Source of the DNA: a phage
Sequence record: OZ335964.1
Length of the DNA: 64,000 nucleotides
Direction: 5' to 3' (one strand)
The translations under genes were made by a program, and so were the position numbers. Within the stretch, counting starts at the first letter, position 1; each line of letters begins with the position of its first letter. Positions 30,325-61,340 of this stretch are shown piece by piece. A model generated the notes under the pieces. The model ran no database searches. It was not told the DNA's origin and saw only the letters and a list, made by a program, of their open reading frames with translations.

Positions 30325-31254
30325 ATGAACTATAAACGTATTTATGATAACCTGATTGAACGTGCTAAGACTAGAACTATCGACGGATATACAGAAAAGC
30401 ATCACATCATACCACGTTGTATGAATGGAAGCGATGATGATAGCAATCTAGTTAGACTCACCCCAGAGGAACATTACATTGCTCACCTTCTGTTAGTTAA
30501 GATTTACCCAGATAACAGTAAATTGGTTTATGCTGCAAATATGATGTGCGTTTCTTCTGATTCACATAATGGAGAAAGACAGTCAAATAAACGTCATGGT
30601 TGGTTGCGTAGAAAAATGGCAGAGGCACATAGTAAAAGAATCCGCGATAGAATGGAGAACGATCCTGAATATAGAGCTAAGGTTTCGGAATGGGCTAGAA
30701 AAATGGGTAAAGCCATGAAAGGAGTTAAGCGAGGACCGGAATTTAGCAGAAAGTTGGCAGAAAGAAACAGAAATACCGTGATGAAAGAAGAAACTAAACG
30801 TAAAATCGGGGAAGCCAACAAAGGAAGGAAACGTACAGAAGAATATAAAAGAAAACATAGTGAGCGGTATAAGGGTGAAGGTAATCCGATGTATGGTAAA
30901 CGAGGAAAGGAACATCCGGCATATGGTACTAAACCGTGGAACAACCAAACATCATTTGTTGAGCAGAAAGCATGGTGGCGGTTCGCTGGCATGTTCTATG
31001 ACTGGTATCAGATGGATATTGACCGTGGGAAACATAAACGCCACGGTCATAAAAGAATGCTTGATGAATTGGGTTTTGTTGGTTGGCGAGAAAAAGAGCC
31101 AGCCGCAGCAAGACGATCAATTGAAATGTTTGCTAAAGGCTGGAATCCTTATGAAGACCAAGAATGGTTAGATTATATTAATACCCGCTTTCCAAACGAC
31201 GATAGTTTTCCGCGTTCTTCAACATATACAAAACAAACAAATCCTTTGCAGTAA
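30325..31254 (+). CDS. HNH homing endonuclease with NUMOD3-like repeats (opposite strand)
   Basis: EKHHIIPRCMNGSDDDSNLVRLTPEEHYIAH HNH motif; repeated GxxNxxYGK motifs; AAGGAG SD; only plus-strand gene in the early region. Confidence 0.8.
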   Translation: MNYKRIYDNLIERAKTRTIDGYTEKHHIIPRCMNGSDDDSNLVRLTPEEHYIAHLLLVKIYPDNSKLVYAANMMCVSSDSHNGERQSNKRHGWLRRKMAEAHSKRIRDRMENDPEYRAKVSEWARKMGKAMKGVKRGPEFSRKLAERNRNTVMKEETKRKIGEANKGRKRTEEYKRKHSERYKGEGNPMYGKRGKEHPAYGTKPWNNQTSFVEQKAWWRFAGMFYDWYQMDIDRGKHKRHGHKRMLDELGFVGWREKEPAAARRSIEMFAKGWNPYEDQEWLDYINTRFPNDDSFPRSSTYTKQTNPLQ

Positions 31255-31696
31255 GACCTAATGCTAGGAATTTACACATAATAAAATGGAGTTGGTCCAC
31301 CGCCTCTAGGTATGTTTCGAGACGATCCGCCTCTGGCAAATCACTAAAGAGGCGGTTTCGTGCTTCCATGTGATTTGCTTTCCAGTGTTTCCATACCGCG
31401 CTCGCGTCCTTCCCGTTAGACATTCCACCTAATGCAGTATACAATTCTCGTGTTTCGTCGTCAAGAGCATTATCATTCGCTCGAATAAAATCTAAAATTT
31501 CTCCACACGTTTTCAATTCGTCAATTTTTGCTACCCACGGACGGTCCTTAGACACCTGATCCTGTAACGCTTTTTGCATATTCATCATGTGTTGGAACGG
31601 GTTATCACCGTTGGCGATGATTTCTTTATATTTTTCTTCTGCAAAATTCAGAGTTTCCGCATTTACTAAGTGTGCACAAGAATTAAATTCTGACAT
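31178..31696 (-). CDS. 56: dCTP/dUTP pyrophosphatase gp56 (MazG-type all-alpha NTP-PPase)
   Basis: Track ORF trimmed to M3 with GAGGTGA SD; conserved blocks CAHL, ASAVWKHWKA, YMLKNAENY...GY. Confidence 0.7.
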   Translation of the reverse strand: MSEFNSCAHLVNAETLNFAEEKYKEIIANGDNPFQHMMNMQKALQDQVSKDRPWVAKIDELKTCGEILDFIRANDNALDDETRELYTALGGMSNGKDASAVWKHWKANHMEARNRLFSDLPEADRLETYLEAVDQLHFIMCKFLALGLTAKDLFVLYMLKNAENYRRLESGY

Positions 31697-31710
31697 ATTC
31701 ACCTCATTAA

Positions 31711-32739
31711 TTAAAATTTACAATATTTCATAAACCGCATTTTAGCCATCAGACCTTGTACGGTGTTCTCTTTGATATATTCCATGATCTGGTCGCGTGT
31801 AGCGCCCTCGTCCTGAATCATGGCGTTAACGTCTTTAGAATGCCACGGGCAACGGTCCCACAATACAATCTTTTCCCCTGCATTGATAAACTTTTCCAGT
31901 CGGTGCATTGTATCGGCTGACCGTGGTTCCGCATCAAGTACAAACACTCGCTGGTCTGGGAAAGGTATTTCATCTAATCCCAAAGTACCGCCAGTAATTG
32001 CACACCCGTTATCAATAAACAATGAATCGATCGGACCTTCTAAGAAATACACTGGTTTGCTCGGATCGGCGCGTTCAAGACCATAGACCTTACTCGCTAA
32101 CTCATGAGTTTTAATCGTCATATATTTGGTCTTTCCGTAATCCTTTCTCAATGCTCGCCCCTGAATGGATTCTATCTTGTTCTCACGGTTAAAGATAGGA
32201 ATCACTAAACGCGGTTCAGGTTGTGGATTCTTGAAAGTATCAGCTTTAATGTGATTTGCTACCTTTTGCCATTCTCTCGTGAAATACAGAAGATCCCATT
32301 TATCGTGAGGAATACAGCGATCACTAACATACTTTACTATAGGATGATTAGCCGGAAGAGTATCTAATCTCTCGCAGAAAGGCAATGTTTGCACTTTCTT
32401 AATCTCCGGCTTTTCTACCTTTTTCAGTGGCTTGAACGTGGTGTTCTTGTGGTCGCCTTGTTCCTTCCGTCTCTCCATAAGCCATTCCCTGAATAGGTCC
32501 GGCTTATACTGTTTGAGAAATTCACCTAACGGCTGATTGTAGTTACAGTTGAAACAACCACAACGCAAACTATCCTTATAGGTATAGATACGGAATCGCG
32601 CCATTGTGCTATTCTTTTTGGAATCTCCGCAGATCGGACAACTTGCTACTAACGTAAATGAGTTAGTATGTAACCGCTTGAAATTTCGTTCGCCGTATAA
32701 TGCTTTTTCGGCTATTTCATAATCTGCGTAGTAAATCAT
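31711..32739 (-). CDS. 61: DNA primase gp61
   Basis: Zinc ribbon CPICGDS...CFNCNY; TOPRIM blocks (EGPIDSLF, VLDAEPR); GAGGAT SD. Confidence 0.85.
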   Translation of the reverse strand: MIYYADYEIAEKALYGERNFKRLHTNSFTLVASCPICGDSKKNSTMARFRIYTYKDSLRCGCFNCNYNQPLGEFLKQYKPDLFREWLMERRKEQGDHKNTTFKPLKKVEKPEIKKVQTLPFCERLDTLPANHPIVKYVSDRCIPHDKWDLLYFTREWQKVANHIKADTFKNPQPEPRLVIPIFNRENKIESIQGRALRKDYGKTKYMTIKTHELASKVYGLERADPSKPVYFLEGPIDSLFIDNGCAITGGTLGLDEIPFPDQRVFVLDAEPRSADTMHRLEKFINAGEKIVLWDRCPWHSKDVNAMIQDEGATRDQIMEYIKENTVQGLMAKMRFMKYCKF

Positions 32740-32746
32740 AAGATCC

Positions 32747-33310
32747 TCACTGTATATTTTTACTTCTTTGCTTTCCTATCCAGATCCGTCTAACTGTTTC
32801 CGCATTAACATCATATATTTTTGCGATCTTTGCCGCAGATCCGGTTCCTTTTAGAGTTTTGATTTCTTCAATCTGATCTTTGGTTAATTTAGCCCAATGG
32901 TGTGCATCACCATAACACGAACTCAGACCGTGTGTCAATGCATGAATCTGATTTTCTGATTGTGTAACCCATTCAAGATTATATAGGTCATGGTTTCTTT
33001 TGTTTCCATCGATATGATTAACAAACGGCAAATTGTTTACGTTTGGTATAAACGCTTCTGCTTTTGCTCTGTGTATGTATATCGATAGAGATTTAACCCT
33101 AGACCCTGAACTAGTTTTATTACCGTAAGGATCTCTGATTCTTGCTACGGCGTATCCACCGCTTCTTCCGGCTACAGATTCTCTATAAATCTTTCCTGTT
33201 TTCTTGTTTCTAATGCGTCCATATGAGCTAACCTCGTAGCCTGGCATTTCGACGCCCATATAAACAAGGTCTTTCCATTCTTCTGGATGTTCGTCACAAT
33301 ACCGTTTCAT
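32747..33310 (-). CDS. HNH homing endonuclease (NUMOD4 + HNH_3 + C-terminal HTH)
   Basis: GYEVSSYGRIRN NUMOD4 motif; VNHIDGNKRNHDLYNLEWVTQSEN HNH; C-terminal HTH AAKIAKIYDVNAETVRRI. Confidence 0.8.
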   Translation of the reverse strand: MKRYCDEHPEEWKDLVYMGVEMPGYEVSSYGRIRNKKTGKIYRESVAGRSGGYAVARIRDPYGNKTSSGSRVKSLSIYIHRAKAEAFIPNVNNLPFVNHIDGNKRNHDLYNLEWVTQSENQIHALTHGLSSCYGDAHHWAKLTKDQIEEIKTLKGTGSAAKIAKIYDVNAETVRRIWIGKQRSKNIQ

Positions 33311-33325
33311 GATGTTATTAACCTC

Positions 33326-33529
33326 TTATAGCTCAAATTTCATGAAAGTTCCTACACTTTCATTTTCATTCTCTCCGTTCTCATCTAAGCCAAATTTGTA
33401 GACACTACCATCTGGCGATGTGTAAGAGAATACACGAAAACGGCCTACCGGATCAAGTTCCATGAACTCATATTCTTTTCCGGCTTCAAACAGTGCATAT
33501 GTGCTCTTAAGACATTTCATCGTAATCAT
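33326..33529 (-). CDS. hypothetical protein (67 aa)
   Basis: ATGA overlap with the upstream ORF stop. Confidence 0.45.
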   Translation of the reverse strand: MITMKCLKSTYALFEAGKEYEFMELDPVGRFRVFSYTSPDGSVYKFGLDENGENENESVGTFMKFEL

Positions 33530-33717
33530 TTAAGTGCCACCGACAACAGAATGAGAACTACACCAACATACATTGTGATCTCGGATAACTTTTCTGTTTT
33601 TGTTTTGTGTCCAGATAATCCGAAAACAACAACACCGATAATAGCGGACAGCAAGCCAACGATAAACATGATGATACTAAGCACCGTCTTTCTCCTTCTT
33701 GCGTTTTTCTTTACCAA
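33526..33717 (-). CDS. small membrane protein (63 aa, 2 predicted TM)
   Basis: Basic N-terminus then two hydrophobic helices (LSIIMFIVGLLSAIIGVVVFGL, ITMYVGVVLILLSVAL). Confidence 0.45.
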   Translation of the reverse strand: MVKKNARRRKTVLSIIMFIVGLLSAIIGVVVFGLSGHKTKTEKLSEITMYVGVVLILLSVALK

Positions 33718-33853
33718 CTACACTAGGTCCACGATTGGTAATAGATCCGCTCGTTTCCCCCGCTGCGATCTTCTCAGGATTGCCGCCAGCATCGCCAGCG
33801 GTCATATCTTCTTTGAGTTTATTTTCTTCAACAAACTGTTTAAAGCCAATCAT
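33677..33853 (-). CDS. possible small protein (58 aa); overlaps the membrane-protein ORF
   Basis: Not in ORF track; ATGA overlap with upstream stop; Gly/Lys-rich, low complexity; could be a shadow frame. Confidence 0.25.
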   Translation of the reverse strand: MIGFKQFVEENKLKEDMTAGDAGGNPEKIAAGETSGSITNRGPSVVGKEKRKKEKDGA

Positions 33854-34224
33854 AGAATAATCTCTTTCAGTAAGTCAACAATCTGGTCTTTCGTCAGTTT
33901 ATCCTGATTCTCTACAATCTTGATGACACAAGCGTTAACATCTTTGCGAGTCACGCGGGAGATCGTTTTAATACGATGAAACGGTTCGTAGAAATATACT
34001 GCTTCATTATAGAGCGCAGCAATTTTTCGACGCATTTGATCTTTATCAGCCAGAAAAACAATTGCAGTTTTCGGATCTACGCCAGCCACATCATAAAGTT
34101 CGGCGACTCCCCAGCGTCCTTCCGGTTCAATCATTCCGGCGTGTTTACCGTCGATAAAAATAAGAATATCTCCGTTGAATGCGGTTTTGAATGCTACATC
34201 TTCCGGCGTAATCATATTTTTCAT
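33850..34224 (-). CDS. hypothetical protein (124 aa)
   Basis: ATG with AAGGAG SD. Confidence 0.5.
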   Translation of the reverse strand: MKNMITPEDVAFKTAFNGDILIFIDGKHAGMIEPEGRWGVAELYDVAGVDPKTAIVFLADKDQMRRKIAALYNEAVYFYEPFHRIKTISRVTRKDVNACVIKIVENQDKLTKDQIVDLLKEIIL

Positions 34225-34254
34225 AATATAGTCTCCTTAGAGTTTCATTATAGA

Positions 34255-34890
34255 TCAAGCGAATGTAGAAAGCAAATGTTTTGTTTCTTTCAGTTGTCGT
34301 TCAAGATCTTTGCGTTTCTCTTTAAGTTGCATTTTAGCATTGTTTCGCTGTTTTTCAACATCTTTATCGATGTGCTTAGTCCAATTATCAATATCAGAAT
34401 AAGTTGGCATACCCAATTCTAAGCCTAATGCGGTTGGATACAGGGTAACAGTCCATAAACCGCTAATCTTCTTAAATAGGTCGGGATGTAGTGTACTACC
34501 TACATCTTCCGGTGTCAACTCTTTTTCTTCTTTCAGTGGTGGGATCTCGTCATATGGTTCCAGCGCATTTACTTTAATATCAGATACCTCATCAAAGAAT
34601 CCGCGTACATCCGCAGGAAATACACAGGCAATTTCCCAACCGTGATCACGCAGAGAAGTAATATTTTTCACTCCCCCACCATGCGTGATGATTGATGTGA
34701 CATTGCCATCAAGGTCCACCGAATTTACGAGAAATGGCTTATCGTCTGTCAGATCATTATAAAACTGTGCTTCGGCTGTAGTCATCTCCAGAAACAGATC
34801 TCGGATCGGACGACCATCAGGTGCGTTACCTTCCTTGAGAGTATAAAAGCGACTTACGATCCATTTTGGCGGTAAAGCATTAGCGATCAT
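34255..34890 (-). CDS. hypothetical protein (211 aa)
   Basis: ATG with AGGAG SD; no recognised motif. Confidence 0.55.
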   Translation of the reverse strand: MIANALPPKWIVSRFYTLKEGNAPDGRPIRDLFLEMTTAEAQFYNDLTDDKPFLVNSVDLDGNVTSIITHGGGVKNITSLRDHGWEIACVFPADVRGFFDEVSDIKVNALEPYDEIPPLKEEKELTPEDVGSTLHPDLFKKISGLWTVTLYPTALGLELGMPTYSDIDNWTKHIDKDVEKQRNNAKMQLKEKRKDLERQLKETKHLLSTFA

Positions 34891-34918
34891 GTTATATCTC
34901 CTATCAAATCATTCACCA

Positions 34919-34934
34919 GCGCCCCGTAGGGCGC
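34919..34934 (-). other. intercistronic GC stem-loop downstream of gene 41
   Basis: GCGCCC-CGTA-GGGCGC hairpin between gp41 stop and the next SD. Confidence 0.35.
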
Positions 34935-34940
34935 ATTTTA

Positions 34941-36353
34941 TTAGAAAGTCATGTTATTTGCTAGCTCGTCGAGTTTTTCTCGTTTCTCGGCTTGCTGTGC
35001 GCTTTGTGGTTTAACTTGTGCATTCTCCTGATCTGCGATCTGGTTTGGAACTTCATACCAACGCTGATTTCCTTTTTTCACACCAACGTTAAACCGTGAA
35101 TAGTAGTTCTTATCGCCGTAACGAGACTTGATCTGCTTCATGAGTTGAACGCCCATTTTAGCAAGGTCTTCGGTTTCGATAACACCCAACATAAAATCGG
35201 CTGTAGCCGGAAGACCTGCTGATTCAGCGGTATCACTCATGTTAAGGTCTGACGCATCCCAACCCGCGCGGGTAGTCTGTGCCGCAGTCCAACCAACAAC
35301 ATCCCACTTAACAAAAAAACCTCGCAGTTCTTCCGCAATCGCCTTAACTAGTGTGTAACTATTTTCAGAGTATACACGCAAGCGAGACGATGCGCAAATC
35401 CCCAGATAGTCAACAATCACAACATCAGGTTTAAACTGTTTCTTGAGTCGCAATTCATTCATTAACGCCTCAAAGTGATTGGAGTTCGCGCCACCAGTCG
35501 GATACTGCTTGATCATCAATTTTCCAACCGGACGATCTCCGATCTTCTTATTCTTAACACGCTTCATACGTGCGGAATATTCCGCAAAAGAAACATTACC
35601 ATTATCCAATTCATCTAATGTAATGTCAAGCAAGTTTGCGTCAATACGTTTGGCTACGACATGCTCTGCCATCTCCATTGAGATATACAATACATCATAA
35701 CCACATTCCATATAATCCGCAGCAAGAGAACACAATCCAAGCGATTTACCAACATTTACACCAGCAAGCAACACATTTAGCGTTTTTCTTTCCGCCCCTC
35801 CTTTCGTGATTTTATTCAACATCGGCAGCTTAAACGGGATCTTATTCGCTTTAGTCTGATATAGCAAGAATCGTTTTTCAAAGTCATTAAACCAGTCATG
35901 ACCTACATCAGAATCAAACGTAATGGATAGTGCTTCCTGCATGATCTCAGGAATAGCTCCCTCACCCGGCAATTTCTTATTCTGTTTCTCTTTTGGTAGT
36001 TGTGCGTTCGCTTGAATCTCTAGCGCCCGTGACATTGCATTGTACATAGCGCGGTCGCGGATAAATTTTTCGGTTTCCTTCATTAACCAATCAAGGTCTT
36101 CCGGTGTATTCTCCAGCGAATCGAGAAGAGTTTTAGCCCCTTCATATGTTGTCTGATTGCCTCTCTCCTTGTCTAAAGCAATCTGTAATGCAGTTGGCGT
36201 AGGAATGTTGGAATATTCGTCTACGTGCTTTTTAATCAGCTTATAAATCAGTTTTTCTTCGTCTTCGGTGAAGTAGTCCGCTTTAAGATGAGGCCATACA
36301 TTCGTAAAGAATGCGCCATTGTAAATCAACTGTGAAAAGATAGTTTTAATCAT
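34941..36353 (-). CDS. 41: replicative DNA helicase gp41 (DnaB family)
   Basis: 470 aa; Walker A GVNVGKS and DnaB-like blocks; located between uvsX and primase as in T4. Confidence 0.9.
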   Translation of the reverse strand: MIKTIFSQLIYNGAFFTNVWPHLKADYFTEDEEKLIYKLIKKHVDEYSNIPTPTALQIALDKERGNQTTYEGAKTLLDSLENTPEDLDWLMKETEKFIRDRAMYNAMSRALEIQANAQLPKEKQNKKLPGEGAIPEIMQEALSITFDSDVGHDWFNDFEKRFLLYQTKANKIPFKLPMLNKITKGGAERKTLNVLLAGVNVGKSLGLCSLAADYMECGYDVLYISMEMAEHVVAKRIDANLLDITLDELDNGNVSFAEYSARMKRVKNKKIGDRPVGKLMIKQYPTGGANSNHFEALMNELRLKKQFKPDVVIVDYLGICASSRLRVYSENSYTLVKAIAEELRGFFVKWDVVGWTAAQTTRAGWDASDLNMSDTAESAGLPATADFMLGVIETEDLAKMGVQLMKQIKSRYGDKNYYSRFNVGVKKGNQRWYEVPNQIADQENAQVKPQSAQQAEKREKLDELANNMTF

Positions 36354-36667
36354 ACATAGCCCCCAACTACACGCATAACAAAGGTCTTGAGTTTATACCA
36401 GAAAGTTTCTTTTTTCAACTTTTCTTCTGCTTCTTTGATTTGCGCTGTTAACGCCTTAATGACGTGAGGATATACCACATCACGATCTGACGGCGTGGAG
36501 TAGTCGACCACAATACCTTTAGTGTCTGGATCGTATTCAACATTATGAATATAGACAATATGATGTTCTCCCTCTTCATCAACAATTATCAATTCCTGAA
36601 TAACTGTCTTCATTGCTTCTTGAATCAAGCCGTGTGCTTCTTCTAAACTGGTTGGTTTCTTATCCAT
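36350..36667 (-). CDS. hypothetical protein (105 aa) at the gene-40 position
   Basis: ATGA overlap with gene 41 start; GAGAGG SD; identity with gp40 not verified. Confidence 0.5.
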   Translation of the reverse strand: MDKKPTSLEEAHGLIQEAMKTVIQELIIVDEEGEHHIVYIHNVEYDPDTKGIVVDYSTPSDRDVVYPHVIKALTAQIKEAEEKLKKETFWYKLKTFVMRVVGGYV

Positions 36668-36688
36668 AATATAATCCTCTCTAGATAT

Positions 36689-36710
36689 GAAAAAGGGGCA
36701 CGTAGCCCCT
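36689..36710 (-). terminator. rho-independent terminator after uvsX
   Basis: Minus-strand hairpin AGGGGC-TACGT-GCCCCT followed by TTTTTC. Confidence 0.55.
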
Positions 36711-36722
36711 TTACTACCATTG

Positions 36723-37793
36723 TTATGCTAACATATCTTCGATTTCTTTGTCAACTGCTTCGTCGCTGATCACTTGCCCCAGCTTATAATGATCGTTGAT
36801 TGCTTCGTTAAACTTATCGTTTGTCAGAAGTGGTTTCCAGAACTCAATGCTATTGGTTTCTTTAGCACGGAACTTGCGTTCTTCGGTTTCCATCTCTCCG
36901 GTCTCCGTATTCAGGATTGAACGAGAATACCAGCCGTTTGACGGTTTCACTACCCAACCTAACTCTACAGCCAACTCCAGCAAACCGGAATAAGGATCGA
37001 TGCCACCGCTAAACGTTACGCTAATCGGGAACTTAGATTTTTCTTTAACGGTTCGTGATTTTTCCGCATTCAGGATAAAATCATAGCCAGTAATTTCGGT
37101 TCCTTCTTTCTGCTGACGACGACCAATAATGAAAACTTCATTGGCTGAATACATCGCGCCCGTACCGCCGGACATAACGGTCTTACTAAACATTTCTTGC
37201 GTTTCGTAAGTGTGGTTAATAGCGATGCACGGGATATCATTCATAGTCAGATATGGCGTCACCATACGGAACAAGCCTTTAAGTGCTTTAGCTCGCGTCA
37301 TATCCTGTGCGGATTTCTCATTAATCGCGTCTTCAACTTCTTTTTTACTTGCTAAGTTACCGATTGAGTCAATAAAGATGATCACTTTATCTTCACGGGT
37401 AATTTGCTCAAGCTGGTTCATGATTTCAAATTTAAGTTCTTCGATGTTCTTGATTGGAACATGCACCACGCGATCAGGATCTACACCCATAGATTCAAGA
37501 TAAGCGGATGTAATACCGAACTCAGAATCAAAGAACAAACACGCCGCATCAGGATTCTGTTTCATGTATGCACTAACGCAAGTTAATCCCATGTTTGATT
37601 TAAAGTGCTTAGACGGACCAGCAAAGAAAATCAGACCAGATTGAAAGCCTTTTTTAAGATCACCGGAAAACGCAATATTCAGCATCGGGATCTTAGTGCG
37701 AGTATTTGTTTTTTCGTTAAAGAAGCTGGATTTAGACAGTACCGCAGTAGTTTTCAGGGTAGAGTTCTTTTTCAGTTTTTCCAGTACAGACAT
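36723..37793 (-). CDS. uvsX: UvsX recombinase (RecA-like)
   Basis: 356 aa; Walker A GPSKHFKS and RecA-fold blocks; AGAGGT SD. Confidence 0.9.
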   Translation of the reverse strand: MSVLEKLKKNSTLKTTAVLSKSSFFNEKTNTRTKIPMLNIAFSGDLKKGFQSGLIFFAGPSKHFKSNMGLTCVSAYMKQNPDAACLFFDSEFGITSAYLESMGVDPDRVVHVPIKNIEELKFEIMNQLEQITREDKVIIFIDSIGNLASKKEVEDAINEKSAQDMTRAKALKGLFRMVTPYLTMNDIPCIAINHTYETQEMFSKTVMSGGTGAMYSANEVFIIGRRQQKEGTEITGYDFILNAEKSRTVKEKSKFPISVTFSGGIDPYSGLLELAVELGWVVKPSNGWYSRSILNTETGEMETEERKFRAKETNSIEFWKPLLTNDKFNEAINDHYKLGQVISDEAVDKEIEDMLA

Positions 37794-41301: not shown

Positions 41302-41383
41302 AATATAAACTCCTTCACTTACGAAAGACACTCATTATAGGGGAATCGACTTAGTTTGTCAATACCCCTATCCCATCAGTATC

Positions 41384-52312: not shown

Positions 52313-52571
52313 AAATCGCCCTCAGTTCTTTATAGCCTCCAATGTGCTCGTTGTCAATGAATATCTGGGGGTATACAAACCGGAGGCTCTTTGAGTTCAG
52401 CCTCCCCGCCAGTTCTTCAATCATATCACGGTCGGGAATAATGTCAACCCCGACCTGCTTGAATACTGGTTTAAGTGTATACGGAATACCCAGATCATCC
52501 AGTAGCTTCATTGCACTAATACAACCATAACAATGATAAGCCTCTTTCGGTATACCGTATATCTCGATCAT
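52302..52571 (-). CDS. nrdH: glutaredoxin-like protein (NrdH-like)
   Basis: 89 aa; CYGC active site and glutaredoxin C-terminal block PQIFIDNEHIGGY. Confidence 0.7.
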   Translation of the reverse strand: MIEIYGIPKEAYHCYGCISAMKLLDDLGIPYTLKPVFKQVGVDIIPDRDMIEELAGRLNSKSLRFVYPQIFIDNEHIGGYKELRAIYDY

Positions 52572-53044
52572 TTCTCAGCCTTTAATCTTTCTAGTTCTTC
52601 TTCCAGTTCCTTGATCCGTTGGTCACGTTCAAAGTCACGCTGTAACTTAGTGGCGAATACTCGTTTAAACTGATTGTAATCATCGATTTTAAACACTTCT
52701 TCTTCGCCATAGCGACGCACAGAAACTTCGTAGTTATTGAAGAATTGTTGCATCATTGCTTCGGATGATAGCTCTGCTGATACCACTTTAAAATATTGAT
52801 CTTCTGTAGGCGAAAACCAATTACAAGCATAAAGATAAACCTTTTCATTGTCTGGACACTGGTAAGCCTTACCATCGATTTCAATCACAGAAACATATTC
52901 AGGTATACTAGATGAATCAATAGCTAAGACTTTAAACGCACGGTCCCCGATAAACTCGGAGATCACACGATTCGCATCACTGGTTGCAAATGCTTTACGC
53001 GCTTGTTCGTTTTTCCACTGATAGGTCATACCAACAACAAACAT
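52568..53044 (-). CDS. paralogous family protein (158 aa), N-terminal beta-domain + helical tail
   Basis: Track ORF trimmed to M9 with GAGGATGG SD; GMTYQWKNEQARKAF...IEIDGKAY domain shared with neighbours. Confidence 0.5.
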   Translation of the reverse strand: MFVVGMTYQWKNEQARKAFATSDANRVISEFIGDRAFKVLAIDSSSIPEYVSVIEIDGKAYQCPDNEKVYLYACNWFSPTEDQYFKVVSAELSSEAMMQQFFNNYEVSVRRYGEEEVFKIDDYNQFKRVFATKLQRDFERDQRIKELEEELERLKAEK

Positions 53045-53045
53045 A

Positions 53046-53870
53046 TTACCATCCTCGCTCTTTACCAATCAAAAATTCAACTTCACGACGTTTAATGTCT
53101 TCTTGAAGGTCTTTAATCTTCTGGCGATCTTGCATGATTTCATCCATCTTGTCAAGTGCCGCAATGAAATCATCGAAACGTTCAAAGGTTTTACCTTCAT
53201 TTGCTTCGCCAAATTTAACCATTGTCAGTCCGTAACGACTACTAAACAGACGTTTCAACTGTCCAACGATCTTAGAATCAGTGGTTATAACTTCCAATTC
53301 TTCTACTTCACGAAAGAATTTTCTATCAGAATCAATAAACCAGCTAGTTCCTTTATGGTCTCTATCTTCGGTTGCGCTCATTAGAGTATGGTCTTTACCA
53401 TCAATTTCAATTACATCAATTTGCCCACATGGACTAACATTTTTAACAGTAAAAGGTCTATAATTTATTGCTCGTGCAATAACATAATTAAGGTTAGATA
53501 CGTTTTCAGCATAATGGCAGAAGTCGGTCATAGCATTCGCATCTTTCCAAGTATAAGTTTTACCAACTTCCCATTTCTGGGGAACTTCTTCAACTTCACG
53601 AAAGAATTTTCGATCGAATGGACTAAAGAAATATGTTGCAGTCCAAATGTCTTTTCCTGTAGCAGTTTTCGCCGTATGATAAACACCGTCTAGCTCTATT
53701 GCATTAATCCAACCGTTACCCTCGATCTCGATGATGGTAAATGGCTTGTCACCAATAGCTGCACTAATATCGCTGTTAAGTGGAGAAAGAACACCTTCTC
53801 CGTTAGTAATAAACTCAGTTTTAGCGTTTTCATCTTTCCAAGTGTAAGTTTTACCAATTTCCCATTTCAT
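53046..53870 (-). CDS. paralogous family protein (274 aa), two tandem domain repeats
   Basis: Two copies of KWE(I/V)GKTYTWKD...IE(L/I)DG...DRKFFREVEE within one ORF; AAGGGGA SD. Confidence 0.55.
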   Translation of the reverse strand: MKWEIGKTYTWKDENAKTEFITNGEGVLSPLNSDISAAIGDKPFTIIEIEGNGWINAIELDGVYHTAKTATGKDIWTATYFFSPFDRKFFREVEEVPQKWEVGKTYTWKDANAMTDFCHYAENVSNLNYVIARAINYRPFTVKNVSPCGQIDVIEIDGKDHTLMSATEDRDHKGTSWFIDSDRKFFREVEELEVITTDSKIVGQLKRLFSSRYGLTMVKFGEANEGKTFERFDDFIAALDKMDEIMQDRQKIKDLQEDIKRREVEFLIGKERGW

Positions 53871-53882
53871 AATATATTCCCC

Positions 53883-54347
53883 TTAACCGATTTTATCAAG
53901 TTCGTTTAATGCTTTCTCTGCTTCCTGTATAGCTTGCACCCTTTCCGGCATTTTGTCAAGAAAATCTTTCAACTCTTCAAAACTGGAGATATGACGCAAG
54001 GCGTTAGCACCGATAGCCGCATGTGATTTGCATTCAAAGCGAATTTTATAATTATCCATCGCCAACTTGAGAAGATCAATTAGTTTAGATTCTTCTGGAA
54101 TACTAATTTCTTCAAATCTGCTACGGTCGTGATCCAGAAACCAACAAGATAGACCTACATCGGTTGAACTCATATAAGTTCCATCATGAAGATATACAGA
54201 TCGCACGTATCCTTTTTTCGCATCAACCGACGCAACTTTAAACGGTAATCGCAGATATTTCAAATAATCAACATCATACCATTTAAAAAATTGGTTTGCA
54301 TCTTTTACATCTTTCCACGCATAGGTCTTACCAACTTCCCATTTCAT
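53883..54347 (-). CDS. paralogous family protein (154 aa)
   Basis: Track ORF trimmed to M6 (MKWEVGKTYAWKD...). Confidence 0.5.
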   Translation of the reverse strand: MKWEVGKTYAWKDVKDANQFFKWYDVDYLKYLRLPFKVASVDAKKGYVRSVYLHDGTYMSSTDVGLSCWFLDHDRSRFEEISIPEESKLIDLLKLAMDNYKIRFECKSHAAIGANALRHISSFEELKDFLDKMPERVQAIQEAEKALNELDKIG

Positions 54348-54351
54348 AATA

Positions 54352-54876
54352 TCATCTCTCATTTTTGATACGTGATTCTAATTGGATCATACGGTCTCGC
54401 GTTTGCTTGTATTCACGGATATTGCCGATCCGGCTAGGCATACCATCAAGCACGCTCTTAATCCCTTCTAGGGTAGTGATTTTAGCAATGCTATTATGTA
54501 ACCCCATCTTATCGATCAACTGAATGTCGTAGGCTTCCATAAGCAGACCCAGACGTTCTAAAGTTAGGTCTTCTTTTTCTTCCGATTCTGGAATCTTAGG
54601 TTCAATAGTAACTTCGGTAAAGAAACGACGCTCACCAGCCCAAAACCACACACCGGAAAAGCCAATAGGGGATTCTTTTAACGTCATAGAGTCGTAACCA
54701 CTGCCGATAATAGTAATTTCTCTAACATCACCATCATCGTCAATGTCTTCTACCCTAAACGGGCGACCAGCCAACAAGTCCACAATACGTCTGTTAATAG
54801 ACGACGAAAATTTAGTCAGTTCGGCTTTCGACGCTTCGCATTCAATCTTGTAAGTTTTACCAACTTCCCATTCCAT
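54352..54876 (-). CDS. paralogous family protein (174 aa)
   Basis: Track ORF starts at GTG; M4 (MEWEVGKTY...) has GAGGTGA SD. Confidence 0.5.
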   Translation of the reverse strand: MEWEVGKTYKIECEASKAELTKFSSSINRRIVDLLAGRPFRVEDIDDDGDVREITIIGSGYDSMTLKESPIGFSGVWFWAGERRFFTEVTIEPKIPESEEKEDLTLERLGLLMEAYDIQLIDKMGLHNSIAKITTLEGIKSVLDGMPSRIGNIREYKQTRDRMIQLESRIKNER

Positions 54877-54886
54877 AATAATCACC

Positions 54887-55390: not shown

Positions 55391-55532
55391 ATTCAATTAC
55401 CCCGAACTCGTTTACAATCTGCGCTTTATAGTAACCACCGCGAGATGCCAATAGATAAGCTGGGCTTAGGTATTCGCATTCACGGATTTCTACTTGTGCG
55501 TTTTCAGTTTCCCAAATCAGTAAAGTCCACAT
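55380..55532 (-). CDS. hypothetical small protein (50 aa)
   Basis: Track ORF trimmed to M26 with AGGAG SD; lies between the promoter cassette and nrdG. Confidence 0.4.
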   Translation of the reverse strand: MWTLLIWETENAQVEIRECEYLSPAYLLASRGGYYKAQIVNEFGVIEYEF

Positions 55533-58702: not shown

Positions 58703-59197
58703 TTATTTTACCAGTTCTGCTAATTCTTTTTCCGCCGCTTCCAGTTCAGCTTTCAGTTGTTTGATCTCTTGTCGCTTCTTATTAGCGGCTTCCTGCTTAC
58801 TATTTCGGATAACCTGATCTAGATACAACTCCCAATCCTGAATATTTTTGATAATGTAGCCGTCAACGTTCAGAGCTTTAATATTAAGAACTTCTTCCAG
58901 CTTACTTAAAGAACGTTGTGTTTCTGGGAAGAAATAGTCATATTCACCTCGGTCAAACCAGTAGCTTATGCCAGCTTTATCTAAACGACGATGCAATTCA
59001 TAAAAATCTCTACCATCTTCGACGATGAGTTTGTCTACATCGCCATTACAGTTAACAGAGACTTTGAATCTAATATTATCAACCCCACCAAAAACATCAA
59101 TAAGGATAGTTCCGATCGTGTTATCCGCGCTTCCAGTATCCATAAAAGATTCTAGTTTTTCTTGATTAGTAACGTACCAAACATCTTGTTTCCACAT
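58703..59197 (-). CDS. hypothetical protein (164 aa) with coiled-coil C-terminus
   Basis: GAGAGGATTATATT-ATG leader identical to neighbouring paralogs; E/K-rich helical tail. Confidence 0.5.
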   Translation of the reverse strand: MWKQDVWYVTNQEKLESFMDTGSADNTIGTILIDVFGGVDNIRFKVSVNCNGDVDKLIVEDGRDFYELHRRLDKAGISYWFDRGEYDYFFPETQRSLSKLEEVLNIKALNVDGYIIKNIQDWELYLDQVIRNSKQEAANKKRQEIKQLKAELEAAEKELAELVK

Positions 59198-59221
59198 AAT
59201 ATAATCCTCTCGTTGTTAAGT

Positions 59222-59255
59222 GGGAGTATTATAGCATACTCCCTTCGCATGTCAA
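59222..59255 (-). promoter_or_regulatory. early promoter/stem-loop cassette (PeSL-like)
   Basis: Minus strand reads TTGACA-N6-GGGAGTATGCTATAATACTCCC; the -35 overlaps the upstream gene stop. Confidence 0.55.
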
Positions 59256-60430
59256 GCACTAACTTTTTTCTTTACTGCTTTCACCTTCTGGCGAATTGCT
59301 CGAATCTCTTCGATCTCTTTTTCAGTCTCTTTAACAATTTCTTTGCGATTCTGAATATCTGTATCGAGATTATCATCAAGTTTAGGCAGCATGTCAATCA
59401 AGAACTTTTTAAAGTCTTTCAGGTTTCTGATAACAGCACCTTCACCCATTACCGCCACCCCTACACCATCCGGCAGATCGCCAAACAGTTTAACCAGTTC
59501 AGACAGATGATCATGATCTTCTAGTGCTTCTTCCGGTTCAGATGGCAGTTCAACAAAGTTATAACGTTCATCATTGCTGATGATGTGATACCAGCAAAGC
59601 CCGAATGATTTCGGTGTATATTCTACACCATCAATTTCAACCGAGTCAACACTTCCATAATCATCTACTTTAGTTACCTTAAATCCTTGTCCCAGCTTTT
59701 GAACAATTTCAACAACATGACTTGATACAGTTTCAGCGGTAAACCAATATGGCAAATTATGCTGATTTGGCTTGTAGCGTTCACCTACTTTAAATCTCTG
59801 ACCAGCCGCTTGCATAGCATGAAATTGTTGTTTCGTGATTTCCGCGAAGTATTCAAATTCGCTACCATCAAACAAGCAATTCCATTGATCACAAAAACGA
59901 TCCGCCTTGACGGTTTCACCTTTCGCGGTGATCACGGTAGCTGATCCGTGCAATTCTTCTTCAACTAAAAAGCCATATTCGACAAAATCGACAAGTTTCA
60001 TGGCTTCTTTGTGCTCTGGATCATTCTCTCCCCAGAATCGCTTAAATTCTTGCAAACCTTCCGGGGTAAACGAATAACATTTACCTTTTTCAAAGTAAGT
60101 CGGCATTGCATCCTCTTTCTTGTTCATAGCTTCGTATGCCTCTTTTGAGATACGTTTAAAGTATTTGCGCTCATTGTGCATAATCATAGTAGCCCAATAA
60201 TAAACGATATCCTCAGCGGAATAAACTACATCTCCAGCTTCAATAGTAATAACATGACCGTGGTCATCTTTTTCTAATACTTTAAAGCCCTTTTCTACGA
60301 TTTCAGCAACCCGAATATGACCACGGCGCGAAGCATCGGTCAGAATAATTGAATAGCGAGAAAAGTCTAGAAACTCATCTTTACCGCCTTCACGGAATGC
60401 ATAGTAATGACCTTCAAAGAATTTAGCCAT
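59252..60430 (-). CDS. paralogous family protein (392 aa), three tandem domain repeats
   Basis: Three copies of the G..Y.F...GF.V...D..G.V domain, with NERKYFKRIS shared with the next paralog; helical tail. Confidence 0.55.
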   Translation of the reverse strand: MAKFFEGHYYAFREGGKDEFLDFSRYSIILTDASRRGHIRVAEIVEKGFKVLEKDDHGHVITIEAGDVVYSAEDIVYYWATMIMHNERKYFKRISKEAYEAMNKKEDAMPTYFEKGKCYSFTPEGLQEFKRFWGENDPEHKEAMKLVDFVEYGFLVEEELHGSATVITAKGETVKADRFCDQWNCLFDGSEFEYFAEITKQQFHAMQAAGQRFKVGERYKPNQHNLPYWFTAETVSSHVVEIVQKLGQGFKVTKVDDYGSVDSVEIDGVEYTPKSFGLCWYHIISNDERYNFVELPSEPEEALEDHDHLSELVKLFGDLPDGVGVAVMGEGAVIRNLKDFKKFLIDMLPKLDDNLDTDIQNRKEIVKETEKEIEEIRAIRQKVKAVKKKVSA

Positions 60431-60454
60431 AATATAATCCTCTCGTTGTTTAGA

Positions 60455-60490
60455 CGGGAGTATCTTACTACTCCCGTTTCATCATGTCAA
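60455..60490 (-). promoter_or_regulatory. early promoter/stem-loop cassette (PeSL-like)
   Basis: Minus strand reads TTGACA-N9-(C)GGGAGTAGTAAGATACTCCC(G). Confidence 0.55.
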
Positions 60491-61053
60491 GCGTTAAATG
60501 ACTTTTGGATCTCTTTCAGTTCAGCTACTTTATCGGCGCTGAATTTAGCGTAGGTATCATGTCGAATAATTTCACTTTCAAGAAAGGTTTCCAGCCGAGA
60601 TCTATTTTCAATAAGGAACTCTTTCAGGTCTTCCGCGTTCTTGATAAAGATTTTATTGTCGGTAATGTCATCTTCAATCGCAAAGGAGATAGAGCGAACT
60701 TTACCAAACAAGTTAATCAGATCTTCCAGAGATTCTTCTTTCTTAACTGGTTTCATTTCTTCAAACTGCTTTTTAGTGATGCGTTTAAAGTATTTGCGCT
60801 CGTTTGCAGCAATCAGAACAGATGCACCTTCATACTCATGAGTTTCTACCAGATACACACGACCCATCGCATCAACAGTGAGAACTTTAAAGCCGTTACA
60901 AAGCACGTCATACAAGAACTTATTATGTTGCGGACATCGTTTGATAAATTCCTCTGCGGACTCAGCATTACGGAAAGTGTAATAACGACCTCGTTCAAAA
61001 ACAGCATCAGTTGAAGACTTAGCCGGATACAATTTATACGTTTTCTGTACCAT
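60487..61053 (-). CDS. paralogous family protein (188 aa)
   Basis: Track ORF trimmed to M7 with GAGGATT SD; NERKYFKRITK block shared with the three-repeat paralog. Confidence 0.5.
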   Translation of the reverse strand: MVQKTYKLYPAKSSTDAVFERGRYYTFRNAESAEEFIKRCPQHNKFLYDVLCNGFKVLTVDAMGRVYLVETHEYEGASVLIAANERKYFKRITKKQFEEMKPVKKEESLEDLINLFGKVRSISFAIEDDITDNKIFIKNAEDLKEFLIENRSRLETFLESEIIRHDTYAKFSADKVAELKEIQKSFNA

Positions 61054-61067
61054 AATATAATCCTCTA

Positions 61068-61340
61068 TCATTTCACTAATTGAACAGCACGAAACAGAAT
61101 GCGGTCACACGGAAGAAGCATAAATTCCCAACGCGGATCAAAGTCTTTAGCGGTATATGTTTTCCCATCAACCGAGATTTCACTTACATAACCAATAGGT
61201 GACACTTTAAGAATAGTAAATCCATTCTTGATGACTTCGTAGGTATCTTTCAATCCTTCGTAGTCATCCTCTAGGAAGTCTTTACGTGCTTGCTCAGATT
61301 TAAAAACATAGGCCACACCGGATTTAAACATCTTACGCAT
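61068..61340 (-). CDS. paralogous family protein (90 aa), single domain
   Basis: EQARKDF ... FTILKV..YVSEISVDGKTY matches the family core; AAGGAG SD. Confidence 0.5.
   Translation of the reverse strand: MRKMFKSGVAYVFKSEQARKDFLEDDYEGLKDTYEVIKNGFTILKVSPIGYVSEISVDGKTYTAKDFDPRWEFMLLPCDRILFRAVQLVK

What the first reader, a model, noticed from the sequence alone, without database searches (positions are those of the whole stretch)
33326..34890. Insertion of hypothetical genes between helicase gene 41 and primase gene 61
Genes 41 and 61 are adjacent in T4 as I recall it, but here they are separated by a 211-aa and a 124-aa hypothetical protein, a two-TM small membrane protein, a 67-aa ORF and an HNH endonuclease. 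The 211-aa protein has no recognised motif and could be a replisome accessory or anti-defence cargo.
Basis: partly seen in the sequence, partly recalled or inferred. Interest (0 to 1): 0.4.

Follow-up and report, generated by a model that had tools for sequence, protein, structure and literature searches.

The report
Accessory gene slot between helicase and primase
The genes between the helicase and primase genes of this RB49-like coliphage are not a new insertion but this phage group's version of a variable accessory-gene slot that T4 also has, and the 211-aa protein is a diverged member of the phage GoF family of small beta-barrel proteins.

Summary
The window is a Krischvirus, an RB49-like T-even coliphage. 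They have been annotated in RB49 for years as Dc2 (211 aa), Dc1 (124 aa), ORF018c and ORF017c. An HNH homing endonuclease is present in only some isolates.

The premise is wrong. In T4, genes 41 and 61 are separated by dmd, 61.4 (tifA), sp, 61.2 (adfA) and 61.1, a stretch proposed in the literature as an 'anti-toxin island'. Only the HNH gene is a true insertion.

Dc2 and Dc1 occur only in Krischvirus and a few uncultured relatives. In every lineage found, the Dc2 homologue lies directly after gene 41. It diverges much faster than its neighbours (22-45% identity against 67-88% for gp41) but is under purifying selection (dN/dS 0.19).

Profile-profile comparison (98% probability), a pLDDT 71 model and fold searches place Dc2 in the GoF/MotB.1/Frd.2 'LSm-like fold' family. 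Eight more paralogous genes lie in this window.

Its function is inferred, not shown. It is most likely a non-essential RNA- or protein-binding modulator, possibly a counter-defence protein, and not a replisome part. Dc1 remains an orphan. This is an ordinary locus with a modest new family assignment.

The parts
34941..36353 (-). Gene 41 replicative helicase, the upstream boundary of the slot
   Evidence: Pfam DnaB_C 3.6e-11 and PHROG 19 at 2.6e-128. It is 57% identical to RB14 gp41 and is annotated g41 in RB49.
35601..35629 (-). Sigma-70-like site inside gene 41 (TTGACA, 17 nt, GATAAT), annotated in RB49 as a hypothetical early promoter. It could drive Dc2 and the genes after it.
   Evidence: RB49 regulatory features. 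The 61-nt stretch is identical in the window. This is a prediction only, not verified.
34919..34934 (-). GC-rich hairpin GCGCCC-UACG-GGGCGC in the 50-nt spacer between the gene 41 stop codon and the Dc2 ribosome-binding site
   Evidence: Read from the sequence. It is part of a -18.5 kcal/mol fold with z = -2.5. On the transcribed strand no T-run follows it, so it is more likely an RNA-stability or processing element than an intrinsic terminator. That reading is an inference.
34255..34890 (-). Dc2, 211 aa, a diverged GoF-family protein. N-terminal five-strand beta-barrel domain: about residues 9-104 (nt 34579-34866). Disordered linker: about residues 106-133. C-terminal part: a small alpha/beta unit plus a long helix at residues 172-210.
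33850..34224 (-). Dc1, 124 aa, an orphan protein of unknown fold
   Evidence: PHROG 16174, function unknown. It is found only in Krischvirus among isolates. Uncultured relatives carry it at 36-72% identity, and L006 lacks it. Pfam, PDB, PADLOC and NCBIfam give no match. dN/dS is 0.13. Its stop codon overlaps the gp61.1 start (ATGA).
33677..33853 (-). gp61.1 homologue, 58 aa.
   Evidence: PHROG 1823 at 2.3e-24. tblastn finds it in 1454 phage records. It is 46% identical to RB14 gp61.1. It sits upstream of gene 61 in T4, RB14, PG7, K65, L004, L006 and L014.
33526..33684 (-). RB49ORF018c-type small two-TM membrane protein, 52 aa from the GTG start (the ORF finder's TTG at 33717 gives 63 aa)
   Evidence: PHROG 18360 at 2.2e-31 aligns from residue 13 of the 63-aa form. 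JSE annotates 52 aa and RB49 47 aa. An AAGGAG lies before the GTG, and the GTG overlaps the gp61.1 stop codon.
33326..33529 (-). RB49ORF017c-type 67-aa protein
   Evidence: PHROG 9181 at 2.1e-34. Homologues at 46-60% identity occur in about 50-kb siphophages, e.g. among small early genes of the drexlervirid BubbaBully. dN/dS is 0.05.
32747..33310 (-). Free-standing HNH/NUMOD4 homing endonuclease, the only true insertion in the slot. It is polymorphic among isolates.
   Evidence: Pfam HNH_3 and NUMOD4, and PHROG 59 at 1.2e-37. It is present in ECD7 and absent in RB49 and JSE, where ORF017c abuts gene 61. This matches the 79% versus 89% coverage classes in megablast.
31711..32739 (-). Gene 61 primase, the downstream boundary of the slot
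   Evidence: PHROG 47 at 2.9e-90. It is 51% identical to RB14 gp61 and is annotated as gp61 in RB49.
52568..54885 (-). Four tandem GoF-family paralogues of Dc2: 52568-53068, 53046-53870 (two N-domains), 53883-54362 and 54352-54885
   Evidence: The Dc2 N-domain profile hits them at 1.3e-11 to 8.5e-3. PHROG 5347 matches at 1e-60 to 1e-92, with secondary hits to goF PHROGs. Their own profile hits T4 GoF at 9e-12.
58703..61340 (-). Four more GoF-family paralogues: 58703-59197, 59252-60430 (three N-domains), 60487-61071 and 61068-61340 (N-domain only)
   Evidence: PHROG 8944 'goF mRNA metabolism modulator' at 7e-213 and 2.6e-99, plus PHROGs 15067 and 16115. Domain census with the A4 profile.

Best explanation
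The stretch 33326-34890 is the Krischvirus version of the variable accessory-gene slot that all T4-type phages carry between helicase gene 41 and primase gene 61. It is a tightly packed, co-oriented array: gene 41, hairpin, Dc2, Dc1, gp61.1, ORF018c, ORF017c, then gene 61. Dc1 through ORF017c have overlapping stop and start codons. In this isolate an HNH homing endonuclease has been added just before gene 61.

Dc2 is a rapidly evolving member of the phage GoF/MotB.1/Frd.2 family. It has the same three parts as its eight paralogues elsewhere in the window: an N-terminal five-stranded SH3/LSm-like beta-barrel, a flexible linker, and a C-terminal part ending in a long helix.

By analogy with that family, I infer that Dc2 is a non-essential protein expressed before late genes. 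It would use the barrel to bind RNA or a host or phage protein, and so adjust mRNA fate or host takeover. It may protect phage transcripts from host ribonucleases, as other genes in the equivalent T4 slot do. I do not think it works in the replisome.

Shown here: gene order, conservation, family membership and purifying selection. Inferred: expression timing, binding partner and physiological role.

Rough sub-probabilities: Dc2 is a GoF-family member, 0.85. It has a non-replisome accessory role, 0.8. It acts specifically on RNA or post-transcriptionally, 0.35.
For: Identity of the locus: megablast and the annotation of RB49, JSE and ECD7.

The slot is occupied in other T4-type phages: T4, RB14, PG7 and K65. 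The T4 slot holds Dmd, TifA and AdfA and has been suggested to be an anti-TA island (PMC9391042).

Family membership of Dc2:
- hhalign of the Dc2 family against the window paralogue N-domains gives 97.7% probability, E = 1.3e-12.
- Against full-length paralogues it gives 98.1%, E = 7.3e-14 over 164 columns.
- Against T4 GoF it gives 77%, E = 2e-5, aligning Dc2 residues 9-105 with GoF residues 4-92.
- Reciprocally, a paralogue profile built without Dc2 finds Dc2 residues 9-103 at 4e-9. It finds Dc2-like proteins of other lineages at 1e-10 to 5e-8, T4 GoF at 9e-12 and MotB.1 at 1e-4.

Structure:
- The AF2 model has five strands in residues 15-102, a low-confidence linker at 106-133 and a helix at 172-210.
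- Foldseek against BFVD finds dozens of Straboviridae proteins at E < 1e-3, including other Krischvirus proteins, and one named GoF at E = 3e-3.

Function of the family: T4 goF amber and deletion mutants, motB.1 amber and deletion mutants, and a frd.2 amber mutant are dispensable in the laboratory. The GoF(D25Y) mutant stabilises RNA carrying the gene 41 leader.

Evolution: Dc2 follows gp41 directly in six lineages. Its identity is 22-45% where gp41 is 67-88% and gp61 is 60-80%. dN/dS is 0.185 against 0.006 for gp41.
Against: No experiment bears on Dc2 itself.

[quoted passage not shown] Wild-type GoF and MotB.1 had only a slight effect in the RNA reporter assay, so 'RNA-binding' is weakly grounded even for the founding members.

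The direct link from Dc2 to T4 GoF is modest: 77% hhalign probability and 16.5 bits. Membership rests mainly on the bridge through the Krischvirus paralogues.

The strict adjacency of Dc2 to gene 41 in every lineage could reflect a functional tie to the helicase that I cannot exclude.
Confidence: 0.55

Rival explanations
1. Dc2, and perhaps Dc1, ORF018c and ORF017c, are counter-defence proteins. On this reading the Krischvirus slot is the functional equivalent of T4's dmd-tifA-adfA 'anti-toxin island'. Dc2 would neutralise a host abortive-infection or toxin-antitoxin ribonuclease, either directly or by shielding RNA. This overlaps with the best explanation rather than excluding it.
For: Dc2 occupies the position directly after gene 41 that dmd occupies in T4. 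Three of the five T4 slot genes inhibit toxins, and the authors call the other genes of that region candidates (PMC9391042). TifA is described as an RNA-binding protein (title and abstract of PMC10853763). Dc2 evolves fast relative to its neighbours. ORF017c is shared with unrelated siphophages, as mobile accessory genes often are.
Against: Neither sequence nor profile comparison links Dc2 or Dc1 to Dmd, TifA, Sp or AdfA, and PADLOC gives nothing relevant. dN/dS of 0.19 indicates purifying selection, not positive selection, although averaging over sites could hide the latter. The slot also holds genes that are not anti-toxins, such as Sp and gp61.1. GoF-family genes are scattered over the genome, so position alone is weak evidence.
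Confidence: 0.22
2. Dc2 is a replisome accessory factor that works with the gp41 helicase and gp61 primase, for example a lineage-specific loader, coupling factor or regulator of the primosome.
Against: Dc2 is absent from T4, RB14, PG7 and K65, whose gp41 and gp61 are clear orthologues. From general knowledge, the T4 replisome can be reconstituted without any such protein. Dc2 diverges far faster than gp41 and gp61, and its dN/dS is about 30 times that of gp41. That is not expected of a tightly co-evolving replisome subunit. Dc2 belongs to a multi-copy family whose tested T4 members (goF, motB.1, frd.2) are dispensable. The idea that its C-terminal tail LLSTFA is a clamp-binding motif fails, because the tail is not conserved in distant orthologues or paralogues.
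Confidence: 0.1
3. The small ORFs are annotation noise or decaying remnants with no function.
For: There are no database motifs. Several of the ORFs are very short.
Against: All are intact in 59-73 independent genomes. dN/dS is 0.05-0.19. Ribosome-binding sites and coupled start/stop overlaps are present. Dc2, Dc1, gp61.1 and ORF017c are kept in lineages whose gp41 is only 67-88% identical.
Confidence: 0.03

Closest known systems
[quoted passage not shown] 2025, PMC12152347)
   Same: Both have an N-terminal domain of about 90 aa forming a five-stranded bent beta-sheet, with the motifs W/F-x-x-G-x-x-Y, PF-x-V and (R/G)-F-F-x-E-V. Both continue with a flexible linker and a variable C-terminal part. 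Both are restricted to T4-type phages and occur in several copies per genome. Their nearest solved folds are FeoA and IdeR SH3-like domains.
   Different: Dc2 is about 20% identical or less to the paralogues and scores only 16.5 bits against T4 GoF directly. It is longer than GoF (211 aa against 141 aa). It has a long C-terminal helix that is shared with the Krischvirus paralogues but was not aligned to GoF. Its fixed position after gene 41 differs from goF, which in T4 lies next to gene 39 and motB. No function is known for the wild-type family members either.
The T4 gene 41-61 interval (dmd, tifA/61.4, sp, adfA/61.2, 61.1), proposed 'anti-TA island' (Srikant et al. 2022, PMC9391042)
   Same: The genomic slot and orientation are the same. 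Both hold small non-essential genes packed between 41 and 61, and both have gp61.1 next to gene 61.
   Different: Apart from gp61.1 the gene content is unrelated. No dmd, tifA, sp or adfA homologue was found anywhere in the 64-kb window. The Krischvirus genes have no demonstrated anti-toxin activity.
RB49 Dc1, Dc2, ORF017c and ORF018c as deposited (AY343333 / NC_005066)
   Same: The window's Dc2 is 100% identical to RB49 Dc2. Dc1 is 95% identical and ORF017c 98.5% identical. The gene order is the same.
   Different: The window also carries the HNH endonuclease between ORF017c and gene 61, as ECD7 does. It carries a second HNH gene between modB and gene 56, as JSE does. No single record in the collection covers more than 91% of the 6-kb query.
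Free-standing HNH homing endonucleases of T4-type phages (mob-type genes)
   Same: The window's gene is an intergenic HNH/NUMOD gene lying between conserved genes, with a presence/absence polymorphism among close relatives.
   Different: Its cleavage target and mobility were not tested here.

Membership tests
GoF/MotB.1/Frd.2 LSm-like fold family (for Dc2) | N-terminal domain of about 80-90 aa, detectably homologous to the GoF N-terminal domain | tested here: met
   hhalign against the window paralogue N-domains gives 97.7%, E = 1.3e-12, and against T4 GoF residues 4-92 gives 77%, E = 2e-5. A reciprocal profile built without Dc2 hits Dc2 residues 9-103 at 4e-9. The same profile hits T4 GoF at 9e-12 and MotB.1 at 1e-4. 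The direct link to GoF is only moderate; the link through the paralogues is strong.
GoF/MotB.1/Frd.2 LSm-like fold family (for Dc2) | Predicted five-stranded antiparallel bent beta-sheet (SH3/LSm-like), with FeoA-type domains as the nearest solved folds | tested here: met
GoF/MotB.1/Frd.2 LSm-like fold family (for Dc2) | Flexible linker followed by a separate C-terminal domain | tested here: met
   pLDDT is below 50 over residues 106-133, which is also the most variable segment in the alignments. The C-terminal part aligns with that of the paralogues.
GoF/MotB.1/Frd.2 LSm-like fold family (for Dc2) | Restricted to T4-type phages, with no cellular homologues | tested here: met
   phmmer against 1.84 billion representative proteins found 7 credible relatives. 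All 5 that could be traced to contigs lie next to T4-type gp41. The two hits in large repeat proteins were judged spurious. All Foldseek BFVD matches that carry an organism name are large myoviruses, mostly Straboviridae.
GoF/MotB.1/Frd.2 LSm-like fold family (for Dc2) | Early expression and dispensability in laboratory hosts | not testable with these tools
   Only a predicted sigma-70-like site inside gene 41 is available. There are no expression or knockout data.
GoF/MotB.1/Frd.2 LSm-like fold family (for Dc2) | RNA binding or an effect on RNA stability (so far shown only for the GoF(D25Y) mutant) | not testable with these tools
   This needs EMSA, CLIP or a reporter assay. Wild-type GoF and MotB.1 had little effect in the published reporter assay.
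T4 anti-toxin proteins Dmd, TifA and AdfA (for Dc2 and Dc1) | Sequence homology to Dmd, TifA (61.4) or AdfA (61.2) | tested here: not met
   tblastn of the RB14 versions of these proteins against the whole window found nothing at E <= 1. hmmsearch with the Dc2 and Dc1 profiles against the T4 and RB14 slot proteins gave E >= 0.04, all non-significant.
T4 anti-toxin proteins Dmd, TifA and AdfA (for Dc2 and Dc1) | Location in the 41-61 interval | tested here: met
   Position alone does not establish function.
T4 anti-toxin proteins Dmd, TifA and AdfA (for Dc2 and Dc1) | Inhibition of a host toxin (RnlA, ToxN or DarT) | not testable with these tools
   This requires co-expression and plaque assays.
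T4 gp61.1 family (for the 58-aa ORF at 33677-33853) | Sequence homology and a position next to gene 61 | tested here: met
   PHROG 1823 at 2.3e-24. It is 46% identical to RB14 gp61.1 at E = 1e-13. The position differs slightly: it directly precedes gene 61 in T4, RB14, K65, PG7, L004, L006 and L014, but here ORF018c, ORF017c and the HNH gene lie between them.
HNH homing endonuclease (for 32747-33310) | An HNH catalytic motif with a NUMOD-type DNA-binding module, and presence/absence polymorphism at a fixed intergenic site | tested here: met
   Pfam HNH_3 at 30 bits (cut-off 24.8) and NUMOD4 at 26 bits (cut-off 23.4). It is present in ECD7 and absent in RB49 and JSE. Its activity was not tested.

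The most novel reading that the evidence does not exclude
Dc2 is an RNA-binding, GoF-type protein that a whole clade of RB49-like phages has fixed directly behind the helicase gene, where T4 keeps dmd. On this reading it protects phage transcripts from a host endoribonuclease defence, such as a toxin-antitoxin or abortive-infection RNase. That would give the large and enigmatic GoF family its first physiological role: a diversifying set of anti-ribonuclease or RNA-shielding counter-defence proteins.
Probability: 0.15. Interest if true: 0.55.

Novelty: new member of a known kind. Interest (0 to 1): 0.25.

Why it matters
The locus is ordinary and has long been annotated, so nothing here changes how T4-type replication modules are understood. 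There are three modest gains.

(1) Dc2 is listed as 'hypothetical protein' or bare 'Dc2' in the 59 records that hold it. It can now be assigned to the GoF/MotB.1/Frd.2 family. That family proves to be heavily expanded in Krischvirus: at least nine genes and thirteen N-domains in this 64-kb window.

(2) The gene 41-61 interval behaves across T4-type phages as a replaceable accessory cassette with one constant member, gp61.1. In T4 three of its genes are anti-toxins, which makes the Krischvirus genes reasonable candidates for counter-defence screens.

(3) The contrast between Dc2's fixed position and its fast sequence change gives a concrete handle for testing what GoF-type proteins do.

Tried and rejected
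- Pfam, NCBIfam and PADLOC scans of Dc2, Dc1, gp61.1, ORF018c and ORF017c gave only sub-threshold noise.
- PDB sequence-profile searches for Dc2 and Dc1 found nothing below E = 0.35.
- The first AF2 run, on a near-identical alignment, gave pLDDT 50.8 and was discarded. Only the second run, on a diverse alignment, was used.
- Foldseek against PDB gave no hit below E = 1. The afdb50 library was not available.
- The search for related loci with the Dc2 alignment failed for lack of a conserved stretch. With P0040 it found no IMG/VR relative.
- A profile word-index search added only P0040 and P0043.
- Two phmmer hits in large repeat proteins, P0041 and P0042, were judged spurious repeat-amplified matches after reading the sequences.
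- A literature search for Dc1 and Dc2 was swamped by dendritic-cell papers. The 2002 RB49 paper is not held. Searches on gp61.1 and on RB49 gene order gave nothing specific.
- I considered whether the conserved C-terminal tail LLSTFA of Dc2 is a sliding-clamp-binding motif like the gp43 C-terminus. I rejected this because the tail is not kept in distant orthologues (LLFSI, LIAELV, LLKGV, LRAF) or in the paralogues.
- I considered whether the 208-aa T4 gp61.2 (AdfA) is the Dc2 counterpart, given its similar length. I rejected this because there is no profile similarity.
- I considered horizontal 'cargo' acquisition of Dc2. I rejected this because its position is conserved in six lineages and its base composition resembles its neighbours.
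Full report
**What the window is.** Megablast of 31000-37000 finds 61 phage records, 56 of them 95-99% identical. Those whose taxonomy I read (RB49, JSE, ECD7) are Krischvirus, and the rest are Escherichia and Shigella phages of the same RB49-like type. The annotated records of RB49, JSE and ECD7 give the minus-strand order srd, modB, 56, 61, ORF017c, ORF018c, 61.1, Dc1, Dc2, 41, 40, uvsX, 43. The window matches this gene for gene.

**Checking the observation.**
- The 211-aa ORF is 100% identical to RB49 Dc2.
- The 124-aa ORF is 95% identical to RB49 Dc1.
- The 67-aa ORF is 98.5% identical to RB49ORF017c.
- The two-TM ORF corresponds to RB49ORF018c. The PHROG 18360 alignment, the JSE annotation and an AAGGAG before GTG 33684 all indicate a 52-aa product rather than the 63 aa obtained from the first TTG.

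The array is compact. A 50-nt spacer containing a GCGCCC-UACG-GGGCGC hairpin separates gene 41 from Dc2. A further 30 nt separates Dc2 from Dc1. Dc1, gp61.1, ORF018c and ORF017c then overlap stop-to-start (ATGA, GTGCTTAG, ATGA), which suggests translational coupling.

All of these are real genes. Among the window, RB49, JSE and ECD7, dN/dS is 0.185 for Dc2, 0.13 for Dc1, 0.14 for gp61.1 and 0.05 for ORF017c. The flanking genes give 0.006 for gp41, 0.015 for uvsX and 0.06 for gp61.

**The premise is wrong.** The T4 record shows 41, dmd, 61.4, sp, 61.2, 61.1, 61. RB14 has the same order. Enterobacter phage PG7 and a Klebsiella phage also have four or five small ORFs there, including spackle and gp61.1. 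Genes 41 and 61 are therefore never adjacent in these phages.

Srikant et al. describe this T4 stretch as a possible 'anti-TA island': Dmd inhibits RnlA, TifA (61.4) inhibits ToxN, and AdfA (61.2) counters DarT (PMC9391042). The window has no homologue of dmd, tifA, sp or adfA. Only gp61.1 is shared.

The one true insertion is the HNH/NUMOD4 homing endonuclease at 32747-33310. It is present in ECD7 and several other isolates but absent from RB49 and JSE, where ORF017c abuts gene 61.

**Distribution of Dc2 and Dc1.** Among 50,697 phage records, both occur only in the 59 Krischvirus genomes, at 90% identity or more. In 5.8 billion protein clusters, Dc2 has 13 hits and Dc1 has 22, almost all at 85% identity or more. 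An exhaustive phmmer search of 1.84 billion representatives added five diverged Dc2 relatives at 23-46% identity, plus two repeat-protein hits that I consider spurious.

The contigs that carry the diverged relatives are uncultured T4-type phages. In every one, the Dc2-like gene lies immediately after gene 41. Identities to the window's proteins are below:

| Locus | gp41 | Dc2 | Dc1 | gp61 |
|---|---|---|---|---|
| L016 | 88% | 45% | 72% | 80% |
| L014 | 79% | 35% | 46% | 71% |
| L013 | 76% | 35% | not on contig | not on contig |
| L006 | 74% | 22% | absent | 62% |
| L004 | 67% | 29% | 36% | 60% |

The gp41 figures for L016 and L013 are over C-terminal fragments of 98 and 90 residues. What lies between Dc2 and gp61.1 varies from lineage to lineage: nothing, Dc1 alone, or Dc1 with extra ORFs. 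Dc2 is thus an old, vertically inherited resident of this position in a clade wider than Krischvirus, and it is the fastest-changing gene there.

**What Dc2 is.** Motif libraries and PDB sequence searches are empty.

*Structure.* An AF2 model built from the diverse nine-sequence alignment reaches pLDDT 71.3. It has three parts:
- a confident N-terminal domain (residues about 10-103, pLDDT 75-87) with five strands;
- a low-confidence linker at residues 106-133;
- a C-terminal part ending in a long helix at residues 172-210.

*Paralogues in the window.* A profile of the Dc2 N-domain searched against all window ORFs finds paralogues clustered around nrdG and nrdD. These are 53046-53870 (1.3e-11), 54352-54885 (5.8e-6), and more weakly 59252-60430, 60487-61071, 53883-54362 and 52568-53068. 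The paralogues belong to PHROG 5347 and to PHROGs labelled 'goF mRNA metabolism modulator'.

*Profile-profile comparison.*
- The Dc2 family against the paralogue N-domains gives 97.7% probability (E = 1.3e-12).
- Against full-length paralogues it gives 98.1% (E = 7.3e-14) over 164 columns. The C-terminal region is therefore shared as well.
- Against T4 GoF alone it gives 77% (E = 2e-5), aligning Dc2 residues 9-105 with GoF residues 4-92. The shared motif is PF-x-V ... (R/A)GFFDEV.

*Reciprocal test.* A paralogue profile built without Dc2 gives:
- Dc2 residues 9-103 at 4e-9;
- Dc2-like proteins of other lineages at 1e-10 to 5e-8;
- T4 GoF at 9e-12 and MotB.1 at 1e-4.

*Match to the published family.* Kim et al. 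[quoted passage not shown] They describe an N-terminal five-stranded 'LSm-like' barrel, a flexible linker and a variable C-terminal domain. They report FeoA, IdeR and SloR as the nearest solved folds. Dc2 matches each structural feature I could test. I therefore file it as a diverged member of that family. The window holds at least nine such genes with thirteen N-domains.

**How it most likely works.** Nothing is known experimentally about Dc2, and little is known about its family.
- T4 goF amber and deletion mutants, motB.1 amber and deletion mutants, and a frd.2 amber mutant are dispensable in the laboratory.
- Wild-type GoF has no known function.
- The GoF(D25Y) mutant raises the level and half-life of RNA carrying the gene 41 leader.
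- Wild-type GoF and MotB.1 have little effect in the same assay.

Combining family membership, position and evolutionary pattern, my best reading is as follows. Dc2 is a non-essential accessory protein transcribed with the 41-61 cluster, possibly also from the predicted early promoter inside gene 41, which is identical in RB49 and the window. Its barrel would bind RNA or a protein partner to adjust mRNA fate or host takeover.

A counter-defence role is compatible with this and is suggested by the T4 slot, but there is no direct evidence for it.

A replisome role is unlikely. Dc2 is absent from T4-type phages with orthologous gp41 and gp61, it evolves far faster than they do, and it is one of many paralogues.

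**Dc1 and the small proteins.**
- Dc1 has relatives only in Krischvirus and three of the five uncultured lineages. It has no paralogue in the window and no match in any library searched. I could not model it, so its function is open.
- ORF018c is a 52-aa two-TM protein with no informative match.
- ORF017c has homologues at 46-60% identity in roughly 50-kb siphophages. In the drexlervirid BubbaBully it sits among small early genes. That pattern is typical of exchangeable accessory genes.

**Verdict.** The locus is a known, conserved feature of RB49-like phages. The only new point is the assignment of Dc2 to the GoF family, together with the extent of that family in Krischvirus. Interest is low to modest.

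Noticed in passing
window 52568-54885 and 58703-61340 (minus strand): Two clusters of GoF-family paralogues flank nrdG (54887-55396) and nrdD (56796-58658). They comprise eight genes with twelve N-domain copies. One protein has two copies and another has three, and one 90-aa gene consists of the N-domain alone. This is a striking lineage-specific expansion.
   Followed up: partly
window 33677-33853 (gp61.1 homologue): tblastn with this 58-aa protein also hits inside the major capsid gene 23 of Aeromonas and Klebsiella T4-type phages, and many records show two matching places. From my memory of the T4 gp23 sequence, the matching part (…GD-x-G-x-N…I-A-x-G-x-TSGA…GP) lies just after the prohead-protease cleavage site of gp23, and gp61.1 keeps an I/L-x-E motif in front of it. 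I did not verify this against a gp23 sequence. It could be a capsid-protein mimic: a decoy for capsid-sensing defence, or a substrate or regulator of the protease. I found no literature on this.
   Followed up: partly
window 38055-41331: DNA polymerase gene 43 is split into a 505-aa N-terminal ORF (39814-41331) and a C-terminal ORF of about 394 aa (38055-39239). A 185-aa HNH endonuclease gene (39260-39817) lies between them. Polymerase CDSs too short to be the whole gene are annotated in JSE and ECD7, and the related contig L006 has gene 43 in two parts.
   Followed up: partly
window 30325-31254 (plus strand): A third homing-endonuclease gene (HNH plus NUMOD3, 309 aa) lies between modB and gene 56, on the opposite strand. 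Its 3' end overlaps the 3' end of gene 56 by about 77 nt. JSE has the same gene and RB49 and ECD7 lack it. No record in the collection carries both this gene and the HNH gene upstream of gene 61.
   Followed up: no
window 34919-34934: A stable hairpin with a UACG tetraloop, closed by C-G, lies directly after the gene 41 stop codon. No U-run follows it on the transcribed strand. It resembles the UNCG hairpins known from T4 intergenic regions; that comparison is from memory.
   Followed up: partly
L004 12108-12380 and L006 10465-10746: In the related uncultured phages, a 90-93-aa gene with a weak Pfam 'Tad2-like' hit lies a short way downstream of gene 56. Tad2 is an anti-Thoeris protein family. 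L004 also has Mom-like and N6/N4 methyltransferase genes there.
   Followed up: no
window 33326-33529 and L012 2501-2692: The 67-aa ORF017c protein is shared at 46-60% identity with Drexlerviridae and other siphophages of enterobacteria. This implies exchange of the small gene between unrelated phage families.
   Followed up: partly
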